From: Candidatus Poribacteria bacterium
Lineage (GTDB): Bacteria; Poribacteria; WGA-4E; WGA-3G
Assembly: GCA_028824125.1 (NCBI GenBank)
Contig: JAPPES010000140.1
Coordinates: 29,359-93,358 of the forward strand
Length of the DNA: 64,000 nt
Reading direction: 5' to 3'
Position numbers and translations under genes: made by a program. Every line of letters begins with the position of its first letter. The stretch's first letter is position 1. The notes below the pieces were generated by a model. The model ran no database searches. It was not told where the DNA came from and worked only from the letters and a program-made list of their open reading frames with translations. This document shows positions 1 through 54,006 of this stretch, in pieces.

Positions 1-1181
1 CACTCTCCGATGTGGATAACGCATGGCATGGTGAAATCGCTGACCGTGAACCCGCTTTATATCAGGCAATACACACAGCCGAACTCACACATGGCAGAGG
101 TATGAAGTCATACCTCATTATGATGGCGGTGCGGTTGTTAGAGATGAAGCGCGTCCTTAAAGACACTGGAAGTATATACCTCCACTGCGATCCGACTGCG
201 AGCCATTATCTCAAAATGCTTATGGATAGTATATTTGGAAAAGATAATTGCCGGAATGAAATTATTTGGCAACGATTCAGTGCACACAATGACGCGAAAA
301 ATGGCTTTGCAAAAATTCACGATATTCTTTTATTTTATGCTGCAAGTCCCTGCACTAAATTCAATAAGACATACGAGCCATACCAAAAGGAATACATAGA
401 AAAGACATACCGATACAAAGATGAGCGCGGTAGGTATACAACATCACCACTTCAAGCACGTTCATTATCAGGCGGAGGCTATAATTACATTTACAAAGGC
501 ATCCAAGATATTTGGAAATTTCCACTGGAGCGGTTAAAGGAACTTGACGAAACAGGACATATTCATTGGCCCAAAAGAGGAAAAGTCCCAAGACGAAAGG
601 TATATTTAGACACAGCCAAAGGTGTTCCTGTTAAAGATATTATCACAGATATAAAACCGCTTACTTCTGCACATAAAGAACGTGTTGGCTATCCAACGCA
701 AAAACCAATCGCCCTATTAGAACGTATCATAAAAGCAAGCAGTAATGAAGGTGATATAGTCCTTGACCCTTTTTGCGGTTGTGCAACAACCTGCGTAGCA
801 GCAGAACGGCTAAACCGTCAGTGGATCGGTGTTGATATATCAGAAAAAGCCGTAGAACTTGTCAAAATACGTCTTGAGAAAGAGCTTGGAATGTTCTATG
901 ACGTGACACACCGAACTGATATACCCAAGCGCAGTGAAAAACTACCCAAATATGACACCCACAAGCACACACTTTATGGTAAACAGGAAGGTGTCTGCAA
1001 TGGCTGCCGAACTCATTTTCCATTCCGCAATATGACTGTAGATCATATTGTCCCGCAAAAACATGGTGGCACAGATCACGAGGATAACTTGCAACTTCTC
1101 TGTGGGGCATGTAATTCCACTAAAGGCACTGGGACGCAGGCGGAACTTATTGCTAAACTTAAAGATCAGGGAGTACTGTAA
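1..1181 (+). CDS. DNA methyltransferase (beta-class N4-C/N6-A, PF01555-like) fused to a C-terminal HNH nuclease domain; 5' end runs off the window
   Basis: Frame 3 is open from nt 3 with no stop before the GTG at 12, so the gene is 5'-truncated. MTase blocks are SIYLHCDP, NEIIWQR and YPTQKP. AdoMet motif I (DIVLDPFCGCATTCVAAERL) lies late in the MTase part, which is beta-class order, so motif IV DPPY would lie upstream of the window. The last ~70 aa (CNGCR...VDHIVPQKHGGTDHEDNLQLLCGACNSTK) form an HNH motif. Confidence 0.85.
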   Translation, partial: LSDVDNAWHGEIADREPALYQAIHTAELTHGRGMKSYLIMMAVRLLEMKRVLKDTGSIYLHCDPTASHYLKMLMDSIFGKDNCRNEIIWQRFSAHNDAKNGFAKIHDILLFYAASPCTKFNKTYEPYQKEYIEKTYRYKDERGRYTTSPLQARSLSGGGYNYIYKGIQDIWKFPLERLKELDETGHIHWPKRGKVPRRKVYLDTAKGVPVKDIITDIKPLTSAHKERVGYPTQKPIALLERIIKASSNEGDIVLDPFCGCATTCVAAERLNRQWIGVDISEKAVELVKIRLEKELGMFYDVTHRTDIPKRSEKLPKYDTHKHTLYGKQEGVCNGCRTHFPFRNMTVDHIVPQKHGGTDHEDNLQLLCGACNSTKGTGTQAELIAKLKDQGVL

Positions 1182-2171
1182 ATGAATTTGCCCAAAGTTT
1201 TTCTTTCATACGTAAAAGAAAATGAAGCAATAATTAGAATACTTGACCAATTCCTTATAGATTATGGTATTGATGTAATTACAAACTATAAAAATATTGA
1301 CGGTGGTTCTAACTGGAAAAGAACGCTAAAGCAACTTATAGAAAGTAGTGGATATTTTATAGCATGCTTTTCCAAAGAATTTAATATGCGTAAAAAATCT
1401 GTTGCATACAGGGAATTAAATGATGCTATAGAATGTGCAAAGGATTTTCCATTCGACCATAAATGGATAATACCAATTAGAATTAACGAGTGTATAATTC
1501 CGAGTATAGAAATCGGATCGCGCGGACAGCTTAATGAATTACAAAGAATCGACTTGTTTCCTGGCGCTAAATGGTATGAAGGTGTCGAATCTATCGTCAA
1601 CGCAATAGACAAAGATCTTATTACGAATCCACAAGAAGCGTTAGCATCTCCACAAGAAATAGAAATCCTTAAAAGAATAGGATTCAATATGGGACAATAT
1701 TATTGTAATGAATTAGGTGATATAAAATTTAACATGCGGAGAGAATATTGGTCACAATCTGAATGGTTTAGAGTTACCCCTGAAACATACCTTAAATTAC
1801 CAAACTATATCACGGCTATAGTTGCTGGCACGCGGGAAGGTATATTAAGTGAGATCAGACTTTCGCTAACGATTAACAATCATTCTGATAAAGACAATGC
1901 CTATGATTCTCTTATTGAAAAGTGTAATCAACTTTGTGTAGAACTTTGTGGAAGTGGTTTATCTGATGAAATTATTCATGATCTAATTCACATTAAGAAT
2001 TCATTTACTAATGACAAAAAATTCAGACCACACTCAATCTACACTGATAATGATTACCGCTTAGAAGGCATTAATATTAACATGCACAATGAAGTTTCCC
2101 ATAAAAGTCTGCTGGACGAAAAACCAATAAGGTTTAGATTTCATATTACAAAAATTTCTTTCACTTCATAA
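1182..2171 (+). CDS. TIR-domain protein with uncharacterised C-terminal domain
   Basis: The ATG at 1182 directly follows the TAA stop of the MTase-HNH gene (ctgTAAATGaat). The N-terminal ~150 aa fit the TIR_2 pattern: VFLSYVKENEAII, YGIDV, IDGGSNW, SGYFIACFSKEF, SVAYRELNDAI (putative catalytic Glu in YREL). Residues ~170-329 carry no motif I recognise. A 329-codon ORF in ~28-30% GC DNA is unlikely by chance. Confidence 0.75.
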   Translation: MNLPKVFLSYVKENEAIIRILDQFLIDYGIDVITNYKNIDGGSNWKRTLKQLIESSGYFIACFSKEFNMRKKSVAYRELNDAIECAKDFPFDHKWIIPIRINECIIPSIEIGSRGQLNELQRIDLFPGAKWYEGVESIVNAIDKDLITNPQEALASPQEIEILKRIGFNMGQYYCNELGDIKFNMRREYWSQSEWFRVTPETYLKLPNYITAIVAGTREGILSEIRLSLTINNHSDKDNAYDSLIEKCNQLCVELCGSGLSDEIIHDLIHIKNSFTNDKKFRPHSIYTDNDYRLEGININMHNEVSHKSLLDEKPIRFRFHITKISFTS

Positions 2172-2246
2172 ATCTACTAATTAATCATGTCCAAAACTAC
2201 AAATTGCGAAATAAATTAGGTAATTTTGCGGGATGTCCGGGGCGTT

Positions 2247-2440
2247 TAGATGAAGATTAATAAAATGTTTCGGAAATTCTAATTTTTCCTAAACCCGGTT
2301 GGTGCGGTTTCCTAACCGCATCGGATATTTCTCCAAATTACCGAATTAATAAATTAATCTTCATGAAATCGCACCAACCGAAAGTTATGAGAGTGAATTC
2401 ATGGATTTAGAACTTCATACCACTTAAACCGAATTCACGT
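2247..2440. repeat. Nested inverted repeats (MITE-like) in the TIR/orphan spacer
   Basis: Three inverted-repeat pairs are nested: atgaagattaat (2250-2261) / attaatcttcat (2353-2364); cggttggtgcg (2296-2306) / cgcaccaaccg (2370-2380); gtgaattc (2393-2400) / gaattcac (2431-2438). The central hairpin gcggtt-tcct-aaccgc (2304-2319) is a variant of the family C core seen elsewhere in the window. Confidence 0.6.
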
Positions 2441-2460
2441 TAATTGCTAAGGACTATAAT

Positions 2461-3138
2461 ATGTTTTGGAAAGTCTTTAAAAGTAAACTTGAATTAGACT
2501 ACTACACAAGAATCTTTACTGGTATTATCACCAAACATCGTAAACCTGAGACGGTAACTGCTTTATTAGAAATTGAATTATTGTCTGTATCTCCTCCAGA
2601 GGATTATGAAAAATCTTACCCTTTTAAGCTAAGTAGAAAAAATGTTGTAATTATATCCACTGGAGAAAAAATTTCATCTGAAGGGGAGATTGAAAGAAGA
2701 GATGAGATACCAAATTTGGGGATTGTTCTTTATTCTTTACCTGTTGGCACAAAAATAGCATTTACAGGACATCCTTACAAACCAACAGACCTTAATATAA
2801 AAATAAATCCTCAATCCAATGAAGAATATCGGATTGAATTAAATAATCAATACCTTGAAGTTGTTGGTTTTAATTCAACTATAGCAAAAAAGATCTTAGC
2901 GCACCAAATAGCAAAAGAAAAAGAAGAAAGAGAATATGAAAAAAGGAAAAATAAACGTAATAGACAAACCCTCTTTCAAAAATTTTCAGATAGACTTTCT
3001 CCATATATCAATAACCCATATATTAATAATTGGCTTGTTAAAGGCGTTATAGTAACCGTTTTAGGAGGTTTAATATTAACTATTCTACTATGGGTATTTG
3101 GAGATTCAATAAAAAAATTTATTTCGACACATTTATAG
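2461..3138 (+). CDS. Hypothetical tail-anchored membrane protein (orphan)
   Basis: This is a 225-codon ORF in ~30% GC DNA. It has a Lys/Glu-rich segment (KEKEEREYEKRKNKRNR) and a PYINNPYINN duplication. A single C-terminal TM helix is present (VKGVIVTVLGGLILTILLWVF). I recognise no family motif. Confidence 0.55.
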   Translation: MFWKVFKSKLELDYYTRIFTGIITKHRKPETVTALLEIELLSVSPPEDYEKSYPFKLSRKNVVIISTGEKISSEGEIERRDEIPNLGIVLYSLPVGTKIAFTGHPYKPTDLNIKINPQSNEEYRIELNNQYLEVVGFNSTIAKKILAHQIAKEKEEREYEKRKNKRNRQTLFQKFSDRLSPYINNPYINNWLVKGVIVTVLGGLILTILLWVFGDSIKKFISTHL

Positions 3139-3203
3139 GAACAGATATATCCCAAAAGACTAATTGCAAATAATTGACTCACAATTTAAAATAGGAAAAC
3201 ACT

Positions 3204-4517
3204 ATGCATAAACCAAACAAGTTTACACTATCTCTGCTAATAATAGTTTGTCTTACGATGCTTCTCTCTACCGCCTCAGCGCAGTATCTACTTGTGCCGA
3301 TGGAGCAGAAACAGACGAACCATCTGAAAGCGTACGGACTAACATATTGGGCATTAGAAGTGCCGCGTGAATATCAATGTTATTGGTGGCTGAATTATCG
3401 TGGCGGATCGTTTGTGATACCCGATGTGCCCGATGTCCGCGTACGTGCCGCACAGATGGGTGTCACAATTGAACCGATGAGCGATGTTGAGTATCGGACA
3501 ATCAAAGAGACCATTATTGAAACGAGCAATATGGATGAGATTTTGCTCGAAAAAGCGCCCAAAATTGCTGTGTATGCGCCCTCTGAGGCATCACCGTATC
3601 GTGACCCGTGGGACGATGCAGTCAAAATTGCACTGGACTATGCCGAAATTCCTTATGACCAAATCTGGGACAAAGAGGTGCAGCGCGGTGCTTTACACAC
3701 AGAAGGTTACGATTGGTTGCATCTACACCACGAAGATTTTACTGGACAGCACGGGAAATTCCATGGCTCCTATTCTCATCAAGTATGGTATCAACAACGG
3801 ATGACACTGTTTGAGACGGCAGCAAAAGAAGCAGGATTTAAACGTGTGCCACGTCATAAAGGACAAACGGCACTGGATATTGCCGATTATGTTGCAAAAG
3901 GCGGCTTCATTTTTGCGATGTGTTCAGCTCCTGAAACGTTAGATATTGCTTTAGCAACAAAGGGTGGAATTCTTGATATTGTAGATCCTGTTTTAGACAC
4001 AACCCCGCTTGCGCCCGATTTTCAAAACCATTTGGATTTTGAGCGAACCTTTGCATTTGAAAATTTTACACTCTATCCGAATCCAAATCGCTATGAATTC
4101 TCGGATGTTGACAATCCAAATCCTGATAGAAACGCACATTCCGGGGTGGAAGATTTCCAATTGTTTGAATTTTCTGCTAAACATGATCCTATTCCGACGA
4201 TGTTGACACAAAATCACGTTTCAGAGGTGCCGGGTTTTCTTGGGCAGACAACCTCTTTTAATGTAGACAAGATCCACAAATCGGTTACGATCTTAGGAAA
4301 AATTGAAGGCACTAACTATGTTAAGTATATTCATGGCACTTTAGGCAAGGGTACTTTTACCTTCCTCGGTGGACATGACCCGGAGGATTACCGCCACCTC
4401 GTTGGAGAAGGGAAAATTCCTACGAATTTAGACCTCCATAAACATTCACCAGGGTATCGGTTGATACTGAATAATATTTTGTTTCCTGCCGCTCGCAAAA
4501 AACCGCAGAAAACCTGA
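3204..4517 (+). CDS. Secreted hypothetical protein (conserved family, function unknown)
   Basis: A signal peptide (LLIIVCLTMLLSTASA) is preceded by an AGGAAA Shine-Dalgarno ~8 nt upstream. The N-terminal block PMEQKQTNHLKAYGLTYWAL...NYRGGSF resembles, from memory, a Bacteroidota family often mislabelled asparagine synthetase B. That memory is low-confidence. Confidence 0.7.
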   Translation: MHKPNKFTLSLLIIVCLTMLLSTASAQYLLVPMEQKQTNHLKAYGLTYWALEVPREYQCYWWLNYRGGSFVIPDVPDVRVRAAQMGVTIEPMSDVEYRTIKETIIETSNMDEILLEKAPKIAVYAPSEASPYRDPWDDAVKIALDYAEIPYDQIWDKEVQRGALHTEGYDWLHLHHEDFTGQHGKFHGSYSHQVWYQQRMTLFETAAKEAGFKRVPRHKGQTALDIADYVAKGGFIFAMCSAPETLDIALATKGGILDIVDPVLDTTPLAPDFQNHLDFERTFAFENFTLYPNPNRYEFSDVDNPNPDRNAHSGVEDFQLFEFSAKHDPIPTMLTQNHVSEVPGFLGQTTSFNVDKIHKSVTILGKIEGTNYVKYIHGTLGKGTFTFLGGHDPEDYRHLVGEGKIPTNLDLHKHSPGYRLILNNILFPAARKKPQKT

Positions 4518-4520
4518 TAA

Positions 4521-4896
4521 TCATCAACCGTTAGCTTGTAGGTCGGGTGTAGCAAAGCGAAACCTATAACTGTCAACTTAAGTAATGTCTGTGTTTTTAT
4601 GAACCCTTCTCAATACGCATTATGATTGAGACTGTCCGATATTTAGTCCCGTAGGGACGATATGTTTATAGTACTCCGTATAGCCCCAACTCTTGAGCTC
4701 CGTAGGAGCGACATATCTTGATCGGTAAACCGATTCTATAACATACCGCCCCTACGGGGCTCAAGAGGGTTTTCACTCTGTTTTCTATAAACATATCGTC
4801 CCTACGGGACTGAAGAGGGTTACTCATATTCGGAAAATCCTTAAGTTGACACCTATGGGTGGAGCGAAGCGAAACCCAACCTACAAGGCTGATGAC
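4521..4896. repeat. ~375-bp foldback (nested palindrome) element
   Basis: Arm pairs are: tcatcaaccgttagcttgtaggtcgggt (4521-) / acccaacctacaaggctgatga (-4896); gtcaacttaag (4572-4582) / cttaagttgac (4840-4850); agtcccgtagggacgatatgtttatag (4645-4671) / ctataaacatatcgtccctacgggact (4785-4811); ccccaactcttgagctccgtagg / cccctacggggctcaagagggtt. The centre lies near atcggt-aa-accgat (~4725). Confidence 0.8.
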
Positions 4897-4912
4897 TGAT
4901 AACTATAAAAAT

Positions 4913-7018
4913 ATGAAAGCAACACTTGCAACCTGCAACCTGAATCAGTGGGCATTGGACTTTGAGGGCAACTGTGAGCGTATCATCGAGTCAATAGAAC
5001 TTGCCAAGGCAGCGGGTGCACGCTATCGACTCGGTCCTGAACTTGAGATAACGGGTTATTCCTGCGAAGACCATTTCCTTGAAGAAGATACGTTACGGCA
5101 CAGTTGGGAATCGCTTGCGCGCATCATAACGGGTGGATATACGGATGGTATTTTGTGCGATATTGGCATGCCTGTGATGCACAAAAGCGTGCGTTACAAT
5201 TGCCGTGTGTTTGTGTGTGATGGTAAGATTCTTCTGATTCGTCCGAAGTTGGTGCTTGCTGCTGAGGGGAACTACCGTGAACCGCGTTGGTTTGCTGCGT
5301 GGCAAAAAGGGTGGACAACGGAACCGTTCCAAGTGCCGCCTGAGATACTTGAAATCACGCCTAATGCCACAGTACCGATAGGGTGTGCAGTGATTGTGGC
5401 ACACGACACGGTTTTGGCATCGGAAACCTGTGAAGAGTTGTTTGCGCCGCACTCTCCGCATATTGATCTTGCATATAATGGCGTTGAGATAATCGCCAAT
5501 GGGTCGGGTTCACATCACGAACTTCGCAAACTTGACACGCGCTTGTCATTGATACGAAATGCAACTGAAAAATGTGGGGGCGTTTACCTATACGCGAATC
5601 AGCAGGGGTGTGATGGCGGCAGGCTTTATTTTGATGGCTGCGCAACGATTGCACAAAACGGACACGTTCTCGTGCAGGGATCACAATTTTCTATCAACGA
5701 TGTTGAAGTGGTCACCGCGACTGTGGATTTACGGGATGTCCGCTCCTATCGCGGTTCAAGGATGAGTGGGGCAGTGCAGGCGAGTCGCGGTGTTTCTATT
5801 CCGCAGATTTATGCCGATTTTAAAGTAGGCAATGCTGAAAATTGTTCTGTCACCGTTCCAAAGTCTGAGTTAAACATTCATACACCTGAAGAAGAAATTG
5901 CGCTCGGTCCTGCGTGTTGGCTCTGGGATTATCTAAGACGATCCGAAGCCGCGGGATATTTTGTTGCACTTTCGGGTGGCTCGGATAGTGGTGCTGTAGC
6001 GACACTTGTCGGTTCTATGTGTCAACTCGTTGCGAAAGGGATTCTTGACGATGTGCCGCACGTTATTCGCGATACTGAACGGATACTCGGTGCAGAATGT
6101 GTTGAAAAAATTAAGACAGATTATAACGATCCGTGGCACGCTGCGCAACACCTTGCTAATCAACTGCTCTATACGTGCTATATGGGCACATCAAACAGTT
6201 CTCGTGAAACGCGGCATCGCGCCAAACAGTTGGCAAGTGAAATTGGCAGTTATCATCTTGACATTAATATGGAGTCGCTTGTCGGCGCATTGCGCAAAAT
6301 GTTTATCGGTATAACCGGCAAAACGCCGCAGTTCAAAACAGAAGGCGGTAGTACCGTTGAAAATCAGGCACTGCAAAACATACAGGCACGGCTGCGGATG
6401 GTTATCAGTTATCTTTTTGCACAGACGTTACCGTGGGTTCGGAATAGGCGTGGGACGCTTCTCGTATTAGGCACAGGCAACGTTGACGAAGCACTGCGCG
6501 GTTATCTCACTAAATATGATTGTAGCAGTGCCGACATCAATCCGATTGGAAGCATTAGTAAAACGGATCTACGCAGTTTTCTTCATTGGGCAAAAGAACA
6601 TCTCAGCTATCCGAGTCTCGGCACTATCTTGGAGGCACCACCAACCGCAGAATTAGAACCTATCACCGAAACCTATACGCAAACCGATGAAGAAGATATG
6701 GGGATGACTTACGCTGAGCTTAGTCGGTTTGGGCAGCTGCGAAAAGTGCATCGGTGTGGTCCCGTCAGTATGTTTGAAAAACTGGTTCAGGAATGGAATC
6801 ATCTGCCTCCCAGTGAAGTCGCAGAGAAGGTCAAAAGGTTTTTCCACTACTATGCCATCAATCGCCACAAGATGACGACATTAACACCTGCCTATCACGC
6901 TGAACCGTATTCACCCGATGACAACCGATTTGACCTACGGCAATTTCTCTATAACACACGTTGGCGTTGGCAGTTTCGGAGAATTGACAGGATATTAGAG
7001 GAGATGGAAACTGAATGA
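4913..7018 (+). CDS. nadE: Glutamine-dependent NAD+ synthetase (long, eukaryote-like two-domain form)
   Basis: The N-terminal CN-hydrolase domain begins [20 protein letters not shown]...[17 protein letters not shown]. The C-terminal ATP-pyrophosphatase domain has the SGGSDS P-loop ([14 protein letters not shown]). I prefer the start at 4913; 4892 or 4859 are possible, but 4859 lies inside the foldback repeat. Confidence 0.9.
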
Positions 7019-8789: not shown

Positions 8790-9467
8790 ATGATAAAGAT
8801 AAAAAGACGTATTCTTGTGAGAATTATTATCTGTGCGCTACTGATTGGGGGTTTTGCGGTATTTGTGCGGGACTGGAGCGGTGTTCGACTTCTAATTCTT
8901 TCTCCAAAGATACTAAAGTATCGTCCAGTTATCCAGAAACATGCTGCGACACATCAGTTGGATTGGCGGTTGGTTACTGCCCTAATTGTCCAGGAATCTG
9001 GGTTTAACGAAAATGCCGTGAGTCCTGCCGGTGCAAAGGGATTGATGCAGCTGATGCCTAAAACTGCAAAAGAGCTTGGTGTTACCGATCCATTTGAAGC
9101 ACATGAAAGCATTGCTGGTGCGACGCGTTATCTGCGCAGTTTGTATGATCTCTATCCAGAGAGTTCACATCCGAATCGTGTGCGTATTGCCTTAGCCAGT
9201 TATAATGGAGGACGCGGGCATATCAAGGACGCGCAGAAAATTGCGGAACACCGTGAGGGTGAACCGCATCAATGGGAATCTATCAGGGCAAATCTTGGTC
9301 TACTCACAGAAAAGGATATAGAATTGCATAGCAAAGTGTGGGAAGCGGGTGTACCGCCGCACGGATATTTTAGAGGGTATCAAGAGACGCGTCAGTATGT
9401 AAAACGGGTGATGCGGTATTATGAGAGGCTGTGCTATTTTTCTGGTATTGTGAAGTGGGCAAAATAG
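8790..9467 (+). CDS. Lytic transglycosylase (SLT domain), membrane-anchored
   Basis: An N-terminal TM helix is present (ILVRIIICALLIGGFAVFV). The SLT catalytic block is VQESGFNENAVSPAGAKGLMQLMPKTAKELGV, followed by ALASYNGGRG. Confidence 0.85.
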   Translation: MIKIKRRILVRIIICALLIGGFAVFVRDWSGVRLLILSPKILKYRPVIQKHAATHQLDWRLVTALIVQESGFNENAVSPAGAKGLMQLMPKTAKELGVTDPFEAHESIAGATRYLRSLYDLYPESSHPNRVRIALASYNGGRGHIKDAQKIAEHREGEPHQWESIRANLGLLTEKDIELHSKVWEAGVPPHGYFRGYQETRQYVKRVMRYYERLCYFSGIVKWAK

Positions 9468-52307: not shown

Positions 52308-53075
52308 TTATATTTCATTGGTAATTTGTTTAACACAGTTCCTGATATAAGGCACATCGTCTACCCATAGTCCTTGAATACCATTTTTTAGTGCCCAAGC
52401 AACATCCTGGGGTGTCAAGATAAATCCAGCTTCAACAACAATTCCTTTTGCACACAACTCATTAACTTGTCGTGGAATGGAACGTGTAAAGGCGTTGTAG
52501 ATTTCAAAATGATTGATTTTGTTCCAACCAAAGATGATACGGTTGGCATCAATCTCGGTGGCTGCTTTGAGAAAGTTTGCCATCGGATTAATGAAAATCA
52601 CGCTCGTCTGGAGTCGTGGTTCTAACCTTTTGGCATCAATAAATAATTGTTTCCGAAAGGAAAAGGTGAGAATACTGACGAGGTGAATGACACCAAAGTG
52701 ATGAATTCGTTCAATGATGATAGGGAGGAGTTCAGGTGTGTCCGATTTCGGTTCAACAAAACACGGCATCTGGTTTTCCTGTGCAAATCTAAGTGCGTCA
52801 TCAAGGTGTGCCACAGGTTCATCTGAGTTTTTTGATTTTAACTGCTGTACTTCTTTCCAGTTTAATCGACTGAGGGGCGTCGAGCATCCAGTGGCTTCGC
52901 GGATATCATATCGGTTAAAGTCAACATGAATCAGCACAGGTTGCTTATCTTGGGTGAGGCAGACATCACATTCAAATCCATCAGCACCGTCTGAGAGTGC
53001 TTGTTTAAAAGAGGTAAGTGTGTTTTCGGGTGCGCGTCCCAGGCCGCCGCGATGTGCCAGAAGTTGAAGTTTCAT
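52308..53075 (-). CDS. Glycerophosphodiester phosphodiesterase family protein
   Basis: Family-typical motifs are LLAHRGGLGRAPENT and GADGFECDVCLTQD. Confidence 0.75.
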   Translation of the reverse strand: MKLQLLAHRGGLGRAPENTLTSFKQALSDGADGFECDVCLTQDKQPVLIHVDFNRYDIREATGCSTPLSRLNWKEVQQLKSKNSDEPVAHLDDALRFAQENQMPCFVEPKSDTPELLPIIIERIHHFGVIHLVSILTFSFRKQLFIDAKRLEPRLQTSVIFINPMANFLKAATEIDANRIIFGWNKINHFEIYNAFTRSIPRQVNELCAKGIVVEAGFILTPQDVAWALKNGIQGLWVDDVPYIRNCVKQITNEI

Positions 53076-53509
53076 AAACTAATTTGTGCCGGATGTTCTC
53101 CCAAACTTAATAATGCTCTACGCAGATTTATCCGCTGTGGAAGATTCATATTCAGTGCTTCAGCTGTTGCCCTACCTGTCCGCGTACGACCTAAAATGAG
53201 GAGAAGGTCTTCACTCCACATAAAATGGCGATTCCAGTTTTTTAAACGAGGATTGAAGAGTGGAACACGTTGGCCTGTTTGTGGGTCTTGTGCGTGTGTT
53301 TTTGCATGTTTGTGGTTGTTACAACGCGGACATGCCCACGCTAAATTATCTAATGAATTAGTTCCACCCGTTTTTTGAGGAATGATATGTTCACAATGAA
53401 AAGAGGAGGTAGCAAAATTGTCAGGTGTTCTGCAATATTCACAAAATCCTTTCGCACGTCCTTGAACTTGTCGGCGTATACGAGCAGAAATACGATCAAC
53501 GGATATCAT
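53072..53509 (-). CDS. HNH endonuclease
   Basis: The HNH motif is CEYCRTP...FHCEHIIPQKTGGTNSLDNLAWACPRCNNHK. The start overlaps the upstream gene stop (ATGA), and the stop overlaps the GDPD start by 4 nt. Confidence 0.85.
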   Translation of the reverse strand: MISVDRISARIRRQVQGRAKGFCEYCRTPDNFATSSFHCEHIIPQKTGGTNSLDNLAWACPRCNNHKHAKTHAQDPQTGQRVPLFNPRLKNWNRHFMWSEDLLLILGRTRTGRATAEALNMNLPQRINLRRALLSLGEHPAQISL

Positions 53510-54006
53510 CCTTTACTATATTCCTGCCTTTTGGTTTCCGAATGAATTAATTGGGAAATAGATTCGTAATAATCGGGTTCATCATGTTGGGAAATATGTA
53601 GACCATATTCTGAGAGAATTTCGCTTGCTGGTTTTTTCCAACGATGTACTAAGATAGTGAGTGCTTCAAGACGTTTGACACTCATTTCTGCTAACTTTGT
53701 TAAAAAAGCCTCGTATTCAACCGTTTCGTCATCACATAAGTCTGTATCCTCTCGTTTAAGTCGCAATTCCCAATAACGTCGATTCTCTGTTTCCGGTAAA
53801 CGTGTGTTTTTCTTGATAAATGCTAATACCTCATCATCAGAGGCATCAGGATCGACGTTTTCATCTACTATGCTCTCCTGTTGTTGCTGCCATTCTGCTA
53901 ACTTCTGCGTGAATTCATCCAATTCGCCCGGCGATAACTGTTTAACGCTATTCAGTAAATGTTCTACTCTTAGTTCGGCGGGGACATCAACGATAGACAT
54001 TAGCAT
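53506..54006 (-). CDS. Acidic hypothetical protein translationally coupled to the HNH gene
   Basis: The 166-aa protein is helical and acidic (QQQQESIVDENVDPDASDDE). A GGAGG Shine-Dalgarno lies upstream. I recognise no motif. Confidence 0.6.
   Translation of the reverse strand: MLMSIVDVPAELRVEHLLNSVKQLSPGELDEFTQKLAEWQQQQESIVDENVDPDASDDEVLAFIKKNTRLPETENRRYWELRLKREDTDLCDDETVEYEAFLTKLAEMSVKRLEALTILVHRWKKPASEILSEYGLHISQHDEPDYYESISQLIHSETKRQEYSKG

What the first reader, a model, noticed from the sequence alone, without database searches (positions are those of the whole stretch)
1..3138. MTase-HNH fusion, abutting TIR-domain gene and tail-anchored orphan: low-GC candidate for an undescribed TIR-based defence module
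Seen in sequence:
- A beta-class DNA methyltransferase is fused to an HNH nuclease.
- Its TAA stop is immediately followed by the ATG of a TIR-domain gene (1179-1184), so they share one transcript and are probably translationally coupled.
- The TIR protein has a ~160-aa C-terminal domain with no motif I can place.
- After a 290-bp spacer full of nested inverted repeats comes a 225-aa orphan with one C-terminal TM helix.
- Hand counts on single 60-nt lines give ~27-30% GC at 1200-1900, against ~55% in nadE.

Established knowledge: bacterial TIR domains are NADases or signal-nucleotide synthases in Thoeris, CBASS, Pycsar and short-pAgo systems.

Inference: no SIR2- or Macro-type ThsA partner is visible, so this is not canonical Thoeris. 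I know of no described system pairing an MTase-HNH fusion with a TIR protein. It could be a restriction-like first line coupled to a TIR abortive-infection arm. The left part of the locus lies outside the window.
Basis: partly seen in the sequence, partly recalled or inferred. Interest (0 to 1): 0.8.

Follow-up and report, generated by a model that had tools for sequence, protein, structure and literature searches.

The report
Portable TIR defence gene beside restriction genes
The three genes are real but are not a conserved module: the middle one is a small, self-contained TIR gene with an unplaced C-terminal domain. In Poribacteria-like genomes it sits inside or beside many different restriction-modification systems, so it is probably a stand-alone NAD+-depleting anti-phage gene.

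Summary
A beta-class MTase-HNH fusion (cut by the window edge, 450 aa in full) ends in TAA directly followed by the ATG of a 329-aa TIR protein. A 289-bp structured spacer and a 225-aa tail-anchored orphan follow. TIR plus orphan form the lowest-GC stretch of the window.

The proposed three-gene module is not supported. Ten distinct neighbourhoods of TIR homologues (55-80% identity; the two named genomes are Candidatus Poribacteria) lack both the MTase-HNH and the orphan. The orphan's three homologues never sit near a TIR.

What recurs is the context. In nearly every case the TIR gene lies co-oriented inside or beside restriction or modification genes: type I, type IIG, type ISP, a CfrBI-type pair, and a PAPS-reductase/ScoMcrA-like HNH locus. 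DNA similarity between loci starts and stops at the ORF, so the gene moves as a one-gene cassette.

Both domains are under purifying selection (dN/dS 0.13-0.44) and Glu78 is invariant. The C-terminal domain models confidently but matches nothing in PDB or BFVD. It occurs in six clusters among 1.84 billion representatives.

Best reading: a single-protein TIR NADase abortive-infection gene with a private sensor domain, a guilt-by-embedding defence candidate. This is a new variant of a known kind.

The parts
1..1181 (+). 3' part (aa 59-450 of 450) of a beta-class N6/N4 DNA methyltransferase fused to a C-terminal HNH nuclease. Neighbour of the TIR gene, not a conserved partner.
   Evidence: Frame open from base 3. 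N6_N4_Mtase 6e-43 and HNH 4e-13. PADLOC MTase_II 2e-66. Full length read from L001:8648-10000.
996..1130 (+). HNH nuclease domain of the fusion (CxxC...DH...N...CxxC-N).
   Evidence: Pfam HNH at aa 329-373 of the window fragment. The motif is invariant in 18 family members.
1166..1184 (+). Junction: GGAG Shine-Dalgarno-like motif inside the last MTase codons, then TAA stop directly followed by the ATG of the TIR gene.
   Evidence: Sequence. The same GGAG-N4/5-TAA-ATG leader precedes TIR homologues in L005, L006 and L013.
1182..2171 (+). TIR-CTD gene (329 aa): the portable one-gene cassette and the real feature of interest.
   Evidence: ORF. 41 homologous clusters. DNA homology to other loci starts at 1179-1181 and ends at 2171-2175. 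dN/dS 0.13-0.44.
1197..1589 (+). TIR domain (aa 6-136).
   Evidence: TIR_2 2e-15. Foldseek hits SPARTA TIR-APAZ at E 5e-8 and the SARM1 and AbTir TIR domains at target TM 0.64-0.68.
1413..1415 (+). Codon of Glu78 (YREL), the putative NADase catalytic glutamate.
   Evidence: Invariant in 22 aligned family members. Its position resembles SPARTA E77 (PMC9097488, found). The residue equivalence is inferred.
1737..2168 (+). C-terminal domain (about aa 186-329; three strands, two long helices, three strands) with no recognisable relative. Proposed sensor.
   Evidence: CTD-only model: pLDDT 88.7, pTM 0.84. No significant PDB or BFVD match. Six real clusters in 1.84e9 representatives.
2172..2460 (+). 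289-bp AT-rich spacer with nested inverted repeats, including a 16-bp stem (2296-2311/2365-2380) that encloses a terminator-like hairpin (2299-2324).
   Evidence: fold z = -3.6.
2461..3138 (+). 225-aa tail-anchored protein (TM at aa 195-214, bases 3043-3102). An independent accessory gene.
   Evidence: Homologue contexts. Alignment.

Best explanation
The feature of interest is the 329-aa TIR-CTD gene (1182-2171) on its own.

What it is:
- A promoter-less, ORF-bounded, low-GC accessory gene that circulates among Poribacteria-like genomes.
- It lands co-oriented behind or beside DNA-modification and restriction genes of many types, and also on plasmid-like elements.

Proposed mechanism (inferred, not shown):
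- It is a single-protein abortive-infection effector.
- The private C-terminal domain binds a phage-derived trigger.
- Binding drives TIR-TIR assembly.
- The composite TIR active site, with Glu78, then hydrolyses NAD+ and arrests the infected cell.

In this window it was inserted exactly after the stop codon of a resident MTase-HNH gene and borrows that gene's transcript. The 225-aa tail-anchored gene is a second, unrelated accessory gene in the same low-GC insertion.

Shown: gene structure, domain content, family distribution, neighbourhoods, cassette boundaries and selection.

Inferred: NADase activity, trigger sensing by the CTD and the defence phenotype.
For: TIR domain:
- TIR_2 2e-15. TIR fold similar to the NADase TIRs of SPARTA, SARM1 and AbTir.
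- Glu78 is invariant.

Selection and mosaicism:
- Both domains are under purifying selection, with omega 0.10-0.36 for TIR and 0.14-0.45 for the CTD.
- Divergence of the two domains is discordant. L005 vs L013 gives TIR dS 0.011 and CTD dS 0.27, which suggests recombination that reshuffles the CTD.

Context, 10 distinct neighbourhoods:
- Embedded in type I R-M between hsdS and hsdR: L005, L006, L013.
- Directly behind hsdS in L015.
- Behind a type IIG enzyme: L020.
- Behind a type ISP enzyme: L026.
- In front of an N6_N4 MTase + RE_CfrBI pair: L007.
- Beside PAPS-reductase and ScoMcrA-HNH genes: L008.
- On IS/ParA/DUF4238-bearing elements, including a circular 65.9-kb contig: L022-L025.
- Co-cargo includes HEPN_AbiU2, ThsB_TIR, AAA_21 ATPases, DUF4062 and a DpnII-type REase.

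Cassette behaviour:
- DNA homology is bounded by the ORF.
- The TIR gene is low-GC in every locus, 0.31-0.39 against flanks of 0.37-0.49.

No partner:
- No conserved neighbour gene was found.

Precedent:
- Genes embedded in type I R-M are often defence genes (bioRxiv 10.1101/2024.01.29.577857).
- Single-protein TIR systems defend E. coli (PMC11350192).
Against: - No biochemical or phage data exist.
- The catalytic-residue equivalence was not checked by superposition.
- The CTD has no recognisable ligand- or protein-binding precedent, so calling it a sensor is an assumption.
- R-M genes are abundant in sponge-symbiont genomes, and no background rate was computed, so the association is not statistically tested.
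- A signalling (Thoeris-like) role with an unlinked effector cannot be excluded.
- TPR proteins flank the gene in 3 contexts and could be partners there.
Confidence: 0.55

Rival explanations
1. Restriction-modification guard (PrrC-like logic). The TIR-CTD protein is kept silent while the neighbouring R-M or modification enzyme works. It fires as an NADase when a phage disables restriction, for example through a DNA-mimic anti-restriction protein or SAM depletion. This is, but it is not tied to the MTase-HNH.
For: - In 8 of 10 contexts the gene is within one or two genes of a methyltransferase-containing R-M gene, co-oriented with it and usually just downstream.
- In 3 to 4 contexts it is physically embedded between hsdS and hsdR, as prrC is (PMC12707154; bioRxiv 10.1101/2024.01.29.577857).
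Against: - The adjacent systems belong to at least five unrelated architectures: type I, IIG, ISP, a separate M+R pair and MTase-HNH.
- Nearly identical CTDs sit next to different types. L001 vs L005 and L006 gives CTD dN 0.10. A specific protein-protein guard is therefore unlikely.
- Copies on plasmid-like elements (L024) have no adjacent R-M gene.
- A promoter-less cassette would be found behind expressed operons anyway.
Confidence: 0.17
2. One reading: MTase-HNH, TIR and the tail-anchored protein form one three-gene defence system. The TIR makes a signal and the membrane protein acts as effector.
For: - TAA|ATG abutment with an internal GGAG.
- All three genes are on one strand.
- Two-gene TIR systems with TM partners exist in E. 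coli (PMC11350192).
Against: - The combination occurs only on the window's own contig and its 2.6-kb duplicate.
- The orphan's homologues never neighbour a TIR.
- The spacer carries a terminator-like hairpin.
- The MTase-HNH has a different GC content and is a huge independent family.
- Close MTase-HNH relatives (96-98% identity, P0049-P0051) exist, while the TIR's 90% cluster has a single member sequence. This hints that sister strains lack the TIR; it is indirect evidence.
Confidence: 0.06
3. Thoeris-like signalling TIR. The protein makes a cADPR-type or other nucleotide signal for an effector encoded elsewhere in the genome.
For: - TIR domain with the conserved Glu.
- ThsB proteins also carry variable non-TIR parts that sense phage proteins (PMC12578639, listed).
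Against: - No SIR2, SLOG, Macro or other candidate effector is conserved next to it in 10 contexts.
- Known Thoeris genes are tightly linked.
Confidence: 0.12
4. Host-interaction factor. A eukaryote-like TIR protein used by a sponge symbiont to interfere with host TLR/MyD88 signalling, and not a phage defence gene.
For: - The two named genomes that carry the family are Candidatus Poribacteria.
- Symbiont genomes are rich in eukaryote-like proteins (PMC11706023).
- TPR genes are frequent neighbours.
Against: - No signal peptide or TM segment.
- Embedded co-oriented inside R-M operons among Abi and defence cargo.
- The closest structural matches include the prokaryotic NADase TIRs of SPARTA.
Confidence: 0.05

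Closest known systems
Single-protein TIR anti-phage systems (E. coli TIR-V, TIR-VI, TIR-IX and other one-gene TIR systems; PMC11350192)
   Same: - One gene with an N-terminal TIR domain and the conserved NADase glutamate.
- Located among defence genes.
- Presumed abortive-infection outcome.
   Different: - No sequence relationship beyond the TIR domain.
- This protein carries a ~150-aa C-terminal domain found only in this narrow family.
- No experimental evidence.
SPARTA TIR-APAZ (short pAgo systems)
   Same: - Best sequence-profile hit (PADLOC Aga_TIR-PNTD, 8e-10) and best structural hit (E 5e-8) for the TIR domain.
- TIR at the N-terminus, with the Glu at a nearly identical position (E78 vs E77).
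   Different: - The C-terminal domain is not APAZ. The CTD-only model has no match to SPARTA chains.
- No short pAgo gene lies in any neighbourhood.
PrrC and other genes embedded in type I R-M operons ('guilt-by-embedding' candidates, Payne et al. 2024)
   Same: Homologues sit between hsdS and hsdR, co-oriented with the operon, together with other Abi-type cargo.
   Different: - The effector is a TIR NADase rather than an anticodon nuclease or ABC ATPase.
- The gene is not restricted to type I systems.
- In this window it follows an MTase-HNH instead.
Thoeris ThsB
   Same: TIR protein with a variable non-TIR part that could sense phage proteins.
   Different: No linked ThsA-type effector. The ThsB_TIR Pfam model does not hit this protein (TIR_2 does).
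Beta-class N6/N4 DNA methyltransferases of phages and plasmids (PHROG 67; Streptomyces and Mycobacterium phage methylases)
   Same: The MTase part is 42-44% identical to them.
   Different: The window protein has a C-terminal HNH domain. This fusion is common in metagenomic bacteria and present on some viral contigs, but absent from the best annotated phage and plasmid hits.

Membership tests
TIR-domain NADase | TIR fold (flavodoxin-like, Pfam TIR/TIR_2) | tested here: met
   TIR_2 2.3e-15, above the gathering score. Foldseek target TM 0.64-0.68 to SARM1 and AbTir TIR domains.
TIR-domain NADase | Conserved catalytic glutamate on the alpha-C helix | tested here: inconclusive
   E78 is invariant in 22 family members and lies at the position expected from SPARTA E77. 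No residue-level superposition could be made.
TIR-domain NADase | NAD+ cleavage activity | not testable with these tools
   Needs biochemistry.
Thoeris | Linked ThsA effector (SIR2-SLOG or TM-Macro) | tested here: not met
   No such Pfam family in the genes around 10 distinct TIR loci. No conserved neighbour by tblastn.
SPARTA (short pAgo / TIR-APAZ) | APAZ domain C-terminal to the TIR | tested here: not met
   The PADLOC profile aligns only aa 5-152. The CTD-only model (pLDDT 88.7) gives best PDB E 0.03 and TM below 0.25, with no SPARTA chain among the hits.
SPARTA (short pAgo / TIR-APAZ) | Adjacent short pAgo (MID-PIWI) gene | tested here: not met
   No Piwi-family gene in any neighbourhood.
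CBASS / Pycsar TIR effectors | Nucleotide-sensing domain (SAVED, cNMP-binding, STING) and a linked cyclase | tested here: not met
   Only a marginal N-terminal hit to SAVED_TIR (E 0.02, aa 5-57). No cyclase in the neighbourhoods.
Genes embedded in type I R-M (PrrC-like arrangement) | Location between hsd genes, co-oriented | tested here: met
   Met for homologues L005, L006 and L013; L015 lies behind hsdS. Not met for the window copy, which follows an MTase-HNH.
Genes embedded in type I R-M (PrrC-like arrangement) | Functional silencing by, and physical association with, the R-M complex | not testable with these tools
   Needs co-purification and anti-restriction trigger assays.
Beta-class N6/N4 DNA methyltransferase (for the upstream gene) | Motif IV (DPPY/F) N-terminal to motif I (FxGxG-like), and an N6_N4_Mtase profile match | tested here: met
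   DPPF at aa 31-34 and DPFCGCATT at about aa 313-321 of the full protein. PF01555 6e-43.
Single-chain R-M enzyme (for the upstream gene) | Sequence-specific cleavage by the fused nuclease, blocked by its own methylation | not testable with these tools
   The HNH motif is intact and invariant. The activity is unknown.

The most novel reading that the evidence does not exclude
The TIR-CTD protein is a general 'restriction guardian'. It would be an NADase whose unplaced C-terminal domain senses a consequence common to the failure of many kinds of methyltransferase-based systems, such as a DNA-mimic anti-restriction protein or loss of SAM. That would explain why the same cassette is found behind type I, IIG, ISP, type II and MTase-HNH genes. 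It would be the first TIR-based counterpart of PrrC or PARIS.
Probability: 0.15. Interest if true: 0.75.

Novelty: new variant of a known kind. Interest (0 to 1): 0.45.

Why it matters
If the TIR-CTD gene defends against phages, three things follow.
- It adds a compact one-gene TIR system with a new sensor fold.
- It comes from a phylum (Poribacteria, uncultivated sponge symbionts) whose immune repertoire is known only from annotation.
- It extends 'guilt-by-embedding' from type I R-M to several other R-M architectures.

The ORF-exact cassette boundaries raise a separate question: how are single promoter-less defence genes moved between operons? The MTase-HNH + TIR pairing that prompted the finding is an accident of insertion and should not be catalogued as a system.

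Tried and rejected
- **APAZ-like C-terminal domain.** The full-length model aligned over about 400 columns to SPARTA TIR-APAZ. I modelled the CTD alone and searched PDB and BFVD. Nothing was significant. Weak recurring hits to MHC-like platforms and phage tail-terminator or tail-completion proteins had TM of 0.37 or below. Rejected.
- **Conserved small downstream partner.** tblastn of 14 neighbour ORFs against all loci found none shared, apart from generic TPR repeats.
- **Orphan homologue near other TIR genes.** The 220-aa ORF in L023/L025 is not related to the orphan.
- **PDB sequence search.** A search with the family profile and with the TIR domain alone gave no meaningful hit.
- **Rfam.** A scan of 1-5000 at the E-value threshold found nothing in the spacer.
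- **Spacer as a repeated element.** The 16-mer stem occurs only in the spacer within the window. One 81-nt relative lies in L006. I saw no convincing integron attC core sites on inspection, and the contexts are not integron arrays.
- **Viral origin.** No TIR-CTD or orphan relatives were found on IMG/VR contigs.
- **tRNA or integrase at the island edge.** There is no tRNA in the window and no integrase next to the island.
- **nadE and isochorismatase near the NADase.** Not seen at other TIR loci, so treated as coincidence.
Full report
**1. What is in the sequence**

The region 1-3138 carries three same-strand ORFs.

The first ORF is open from base 3 to a TAA at 1179-1181.
- It matches N6_N4_Mtase (6e-43) and HNH (4e-13) in Pfam and type II methyltransferase profiles in PADLOC.
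- An exact-protein look-up found the same contig in a public assembly. This locus, L001, is 100% identical to the window from its base 8820.
- L001 gives the full 450-aa protein. It has DPPF near the N-terminus and DPFCGCATT near residue 315, which is the beta-class order, followed by a CxxC...DH...N...CxxC HNH domain.

The ATG of the second ORF (1182-2171, 329 aa) follows that TAA directly. A GGAG lies 8 nt upstream, inside the last MTase codons.
- This ORF has a TIR_2 domain at aa 6-136 (2e-15).
- The remaining C-terminal part has no hit in Pfam, NCBIfam, PADLOC or PHROGs.

The 289-bp spacer (2172-2460) holds nested inverted repeats, a 16-bp stem and a terminator-like hairpin. It folds better than shuffles, with z = -3.6.

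The third ORF (2461-3138, 225 aa) has one C-terminal hydrophobic helix.

GC content:
- It is 0.29-0.36 from about 1200 to 3150.
- The window mean is 0.437, and nadE is 0.47-0.52.
- These are the two lowest 1-kb bins of the window.
- The MTase-HNH gene (0.39-0.45) is not part of the low-GC block.

**2. The surroundings**

On L001 the three genes lie between ordinary chromosomal genes.
- Upstream: a Tricorn-like 956-aa gene, an ABC transporter and glutamate synthase.
- Downstream: a secreted 437-aa protein, nadE, a Wzi-like gene and others.
- There is no integrase next to the island and no tRNA in the window.

The organism is probably a member of Candidatus Poribacteria.
- The only named genomes with the TIR family are Poribacteria MAGs.
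- Several MTase-HNH hits carry that name.

**3. Is the trio a module? No**

The TIR protein has 41 homologous clusters. About 35 are full-length at 55-80% identity. I recovered ten distinct neighbourhoods:

| Locus | Context of the TIR gene |
|---|---|
| L005, L013/L004 | hsdM-hsdS, TIR, 3-5 cargo genes, hsdR |
| L006 | hsdM-hsdS, HEPN_AbiU2, TIR, ..., ThsB_TIR, HEPN-like, AAA_21, hsdR |
| L015 | hsdS, then TIR |
| L014 | TIR, then the same AAA_21 / DUF4062 cargo as L005 |
| L020 | type IIG (Eco57I/TaqI_C) enzyme, then TIR |
| L026 | type ISP enzyme, Trypsin-TPR gene, then TIR |
| L007 | TIR, then N6_N4 MTase + RE_CfrBI |
| L008 | BrnT, PAPS-reductase, ScoMcrA-like HNH, two small genes, then TIR |
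| L022-L025 | IS/ParA/DUF4238-bearing elements, one a circular 65.9-kb contig |
| Window (L001) | MTase-HNH, then TIR |

- tblastn finds the MTase-HNH next to a TIR only on the window's own contig and a 2.6-kb duplicate.
- The 225-aa protein has three homologues at 44-48% identity.
  - They lie next to an integrase and a DUF4238 gene, or next to MmeI/Eco57I-type methyltransferases and a GIY-YIG/NUMOD3 gene. One is on a circular 101.9-kb contig.
  - None lies near a TIR.
- No other neighbour is conserved across the TIR loci.

**4. The MTase-HNH is its own story**

- A homology search was saturated at 8000 hits. The best 120 are all full-length MTase-HNH fusions at 61-74% identity or more, from many large contigs.
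- The HNH motif and the C-terminal ...LKxQGVL tail are conserved across the family.
- The tail conservation shows that the TIR ORF was inserted exactly after an intact native stop codon.
- The methyltransferase part resembles phage and plasmid methylases at 42-44% identity (PHROG 67).
- Full-length fusions also occur on predicted viral contigs.
- In the one other context I could read (L028), the fusion has different neighbours.
- Whether it acts as a single-chain restriction-modification enzyme cannot be told from sequence.

**5. The TIR gene behaves as a one-gene cassette**

- blastn between loci starts at window 1179-1181 and ends at 2171-2175, which are the ORF limits.
- Only two short non-coding pieces are shared. 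One is a 13-nt leader (GGAG-N4/5-TAA-ATG). The other, in six of nine loci, is a ~25-nt tail after the stop.
- The gene is low-GC in every locus: 0.31-0.39 against flanks of 0.37-0.49.
- In most contexts it is co-oriented with the upstream genes. This fits a promoter-less gene that depends on read-through (inference).
- Pairwise dN/dS is 0.13-0.44, with both domains constrained.
- Divergence of the two domains is discordant. For L005 vs L013, TIR dS is 0.011 and CTD dS is 0.27. For L005 vs L006, TIR dS is 0.95 and CTD dS is 0.20. This indicates recombination near the variable linker.
- In one clade that linker carries tandem peptide repeats.

**6. The C-terminal domain**

- The full-length model (pLDDT 80) hits SPARTA TIR-APAZ and the SARM1 and AbTir TIR domains.
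- Modelled alone, the CTD is confident (pLDDT 88.7, pTM 0.84). Its layout is three strands, two long helices, then three strands.
- The CTD model has no significant match in PDB (best E 0.03, TM below 0.25).
- It has none in BFVD either (best E 2e-3, TM 0.27).
- It is therefore not APAZ.
- An exhaustive phmmer search of 1.84 billion representatives found six real clusters. All full-length ones have the same TIR-CTD architecture, and the most distant is 29% identical.
- The domain is private to this narrow family.

**7. How it most likely works**

TIR domains in bacterial immunity act as NADases or signal synthases once they are brought together. The known examples are SPARTA, Thoeris, CBASS effectors and the E. 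coli TIR-I to TIR-IX systems (PMC9097488, PMC11350192).

In this family:
- Glu78 (YREL) is invariant.
- No effector gene is linked.
- The company is restriction, Abi and other defence cargo.
- Genes embedded in type I R-M loci have repeatedly proved to be defence genes (TgvAB).

I therefore favour a stand-alone abortive-infection NADase whose CTD senses the trigger (confidence about 0.55). The catalytic activity, the trigger and the phenotype are all inferred.

The main rival is a PrrC-like guardian of restriction (about 0.17).
- The consistent position behind methyltransferase-bearing genes speaks for it.
- The variety of partner architectures speaks against it.
- So do the near-identical CTDs that sit next to different R-M types, and the copies on plasmid-like elements without an adjacent R-M gene.

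Other readings rank lower:
- A Thoeris-like signalling role with an unlinked effector: about 0.12.
- A host-directed eukaryote-like TIR protein: about 0.05.

**8. Comparison and novelty**

The gene works like known one-gene TIR defences and sits like PrrC-type embedded genes. It is not a member of Thoeris, SPARTA or CBASS/Pycsar, because the defining partners or domains were tested and not found. PADLOC does not recognise it as a system.

I rate it a new variant of a known kind: a TIR effector with a new, lineage-restricted C-terminal domain that is mobile as a bare ORF.

The specific claim that prompted the finding, an MTase-HNH/TIR/tail-anchored module, is not supported. Interest is moderate (0.45): it is a credible, testable new defence candidate in an uncultivated phylum, and the R-M guardian reading adds an open possibility.

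Noticed in passing
window 1166-1184; L005, L006, L013, L007, L026 just upstream and downstream of their TIR genes: The TIR cassette shares only two short non-coding pieces between loci. One is a 13-nt leader (GGAG-N4/5-TAA-ATG). The other is a ~25-nt tail after the stop (ATAYCATAAAAYACTYDGCATTTAC), present in 6 of 9 loci. The window copy and L020 lack the tail. How a bare ORF is moved so precisely is unexplained.
   Followed up: partly
TIR family alignment A1, columns about 145-190 (P0028, P0032, P0034, P0035): The linker between the TIR domain and the CTD varies in length. In one clade it holds 1-3 tandem copies of a ~15-aa peptide (IEPVN-R/E-SENVSPTTS).
   Followed up: no
L005 vs L013, and L005 vs L006 (TIR genes): Divergence of the two domains is discordant. 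The TIR domain is nearly identical where the CTD dS is 0.27, and the reverse holds in another pair. This points to recombination between alleles at the domain junction.
   Followed up: partly
L013:11027-11548, L023:6420-6707, L026:6275-7771: TPR-repeat ORFs lie directly next to the TIR gene in three independent contexts. E. coli TIR-II systems pair TIR with TPR (PMC11350192). TPR genes are also very common in sponge symbionts, so this may be chance.
   Followed up: partly
L013:11793-15559 and L005/L014 equivalents: The type I R-M operons that hold the TIR gene carry a long embedded cargo. It includes DUF6978, DUF1828 (PADLOC PDC-M24B), a 497-501-aa DUF4062-HATPase_c_4-wHTH protein that hits pAgo-associated SIR2-PNTD profiles, a DUF2321-DpnII/MboI nuclease and AAA_21 ATPases.
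   Followed up: partly
L006:10928-12283: A ThsB_TIR-type 182-aa gene is followed by a 194-aa HEPN_AbiU2-like gene in the same type I R-M cargo. This could be a separate TIR+HEPN pair.
   Followed up: no
L010 (circular 101.9-kb contig), L011, L012, L009: Homologues of the 225-aa tail-anchored protein lie beside MmeI/Eco57I-type methyltransferases and a GIY-YIG/NUMOD3 gene, on elements that also carry 1400-1600-aa ORFs without any Pfam hit. One lies next to an integrase and a DUF4238 gene. These look like uncharacterised plasmids or phages of sponge symbionts.
   Followed up: no
window 2250-2328 and L006:2530-2610: An 81-nt piece of the structured spacer is 78% identical to an intergenic stretch elsewhere in another genome. 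It may be a small dispersed repeat.
   Followed up: no
window 53072-54006 (- strand): A 145-aa HNH-domain ORF (53072-53509) overlaps by 4 nt a 166-aa acidic ORF upstream of it (53506-54006). This could be a two-gene nuclease/partner pair.
   Followed up: no
window 4859-7018, and the isochorismatase-family gene about 8 kb into the window (L001:18695-19468): A glutamine-dependent NAD synthetase gene and an isochorismatase-family (possibly nicotinamidase) gene lie within 8 kb of the putative NADase. This is not seen at other TIR loci, so it is probably coincidence.
   Followed up: partly
L030-L032 (IMG/VR contigs): Full-length MTase-HNH fusions (47-51% identity) occur on predicted viral contigs. 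The fusion is therefore shared between bacteria and phages.
   Followed up: partly
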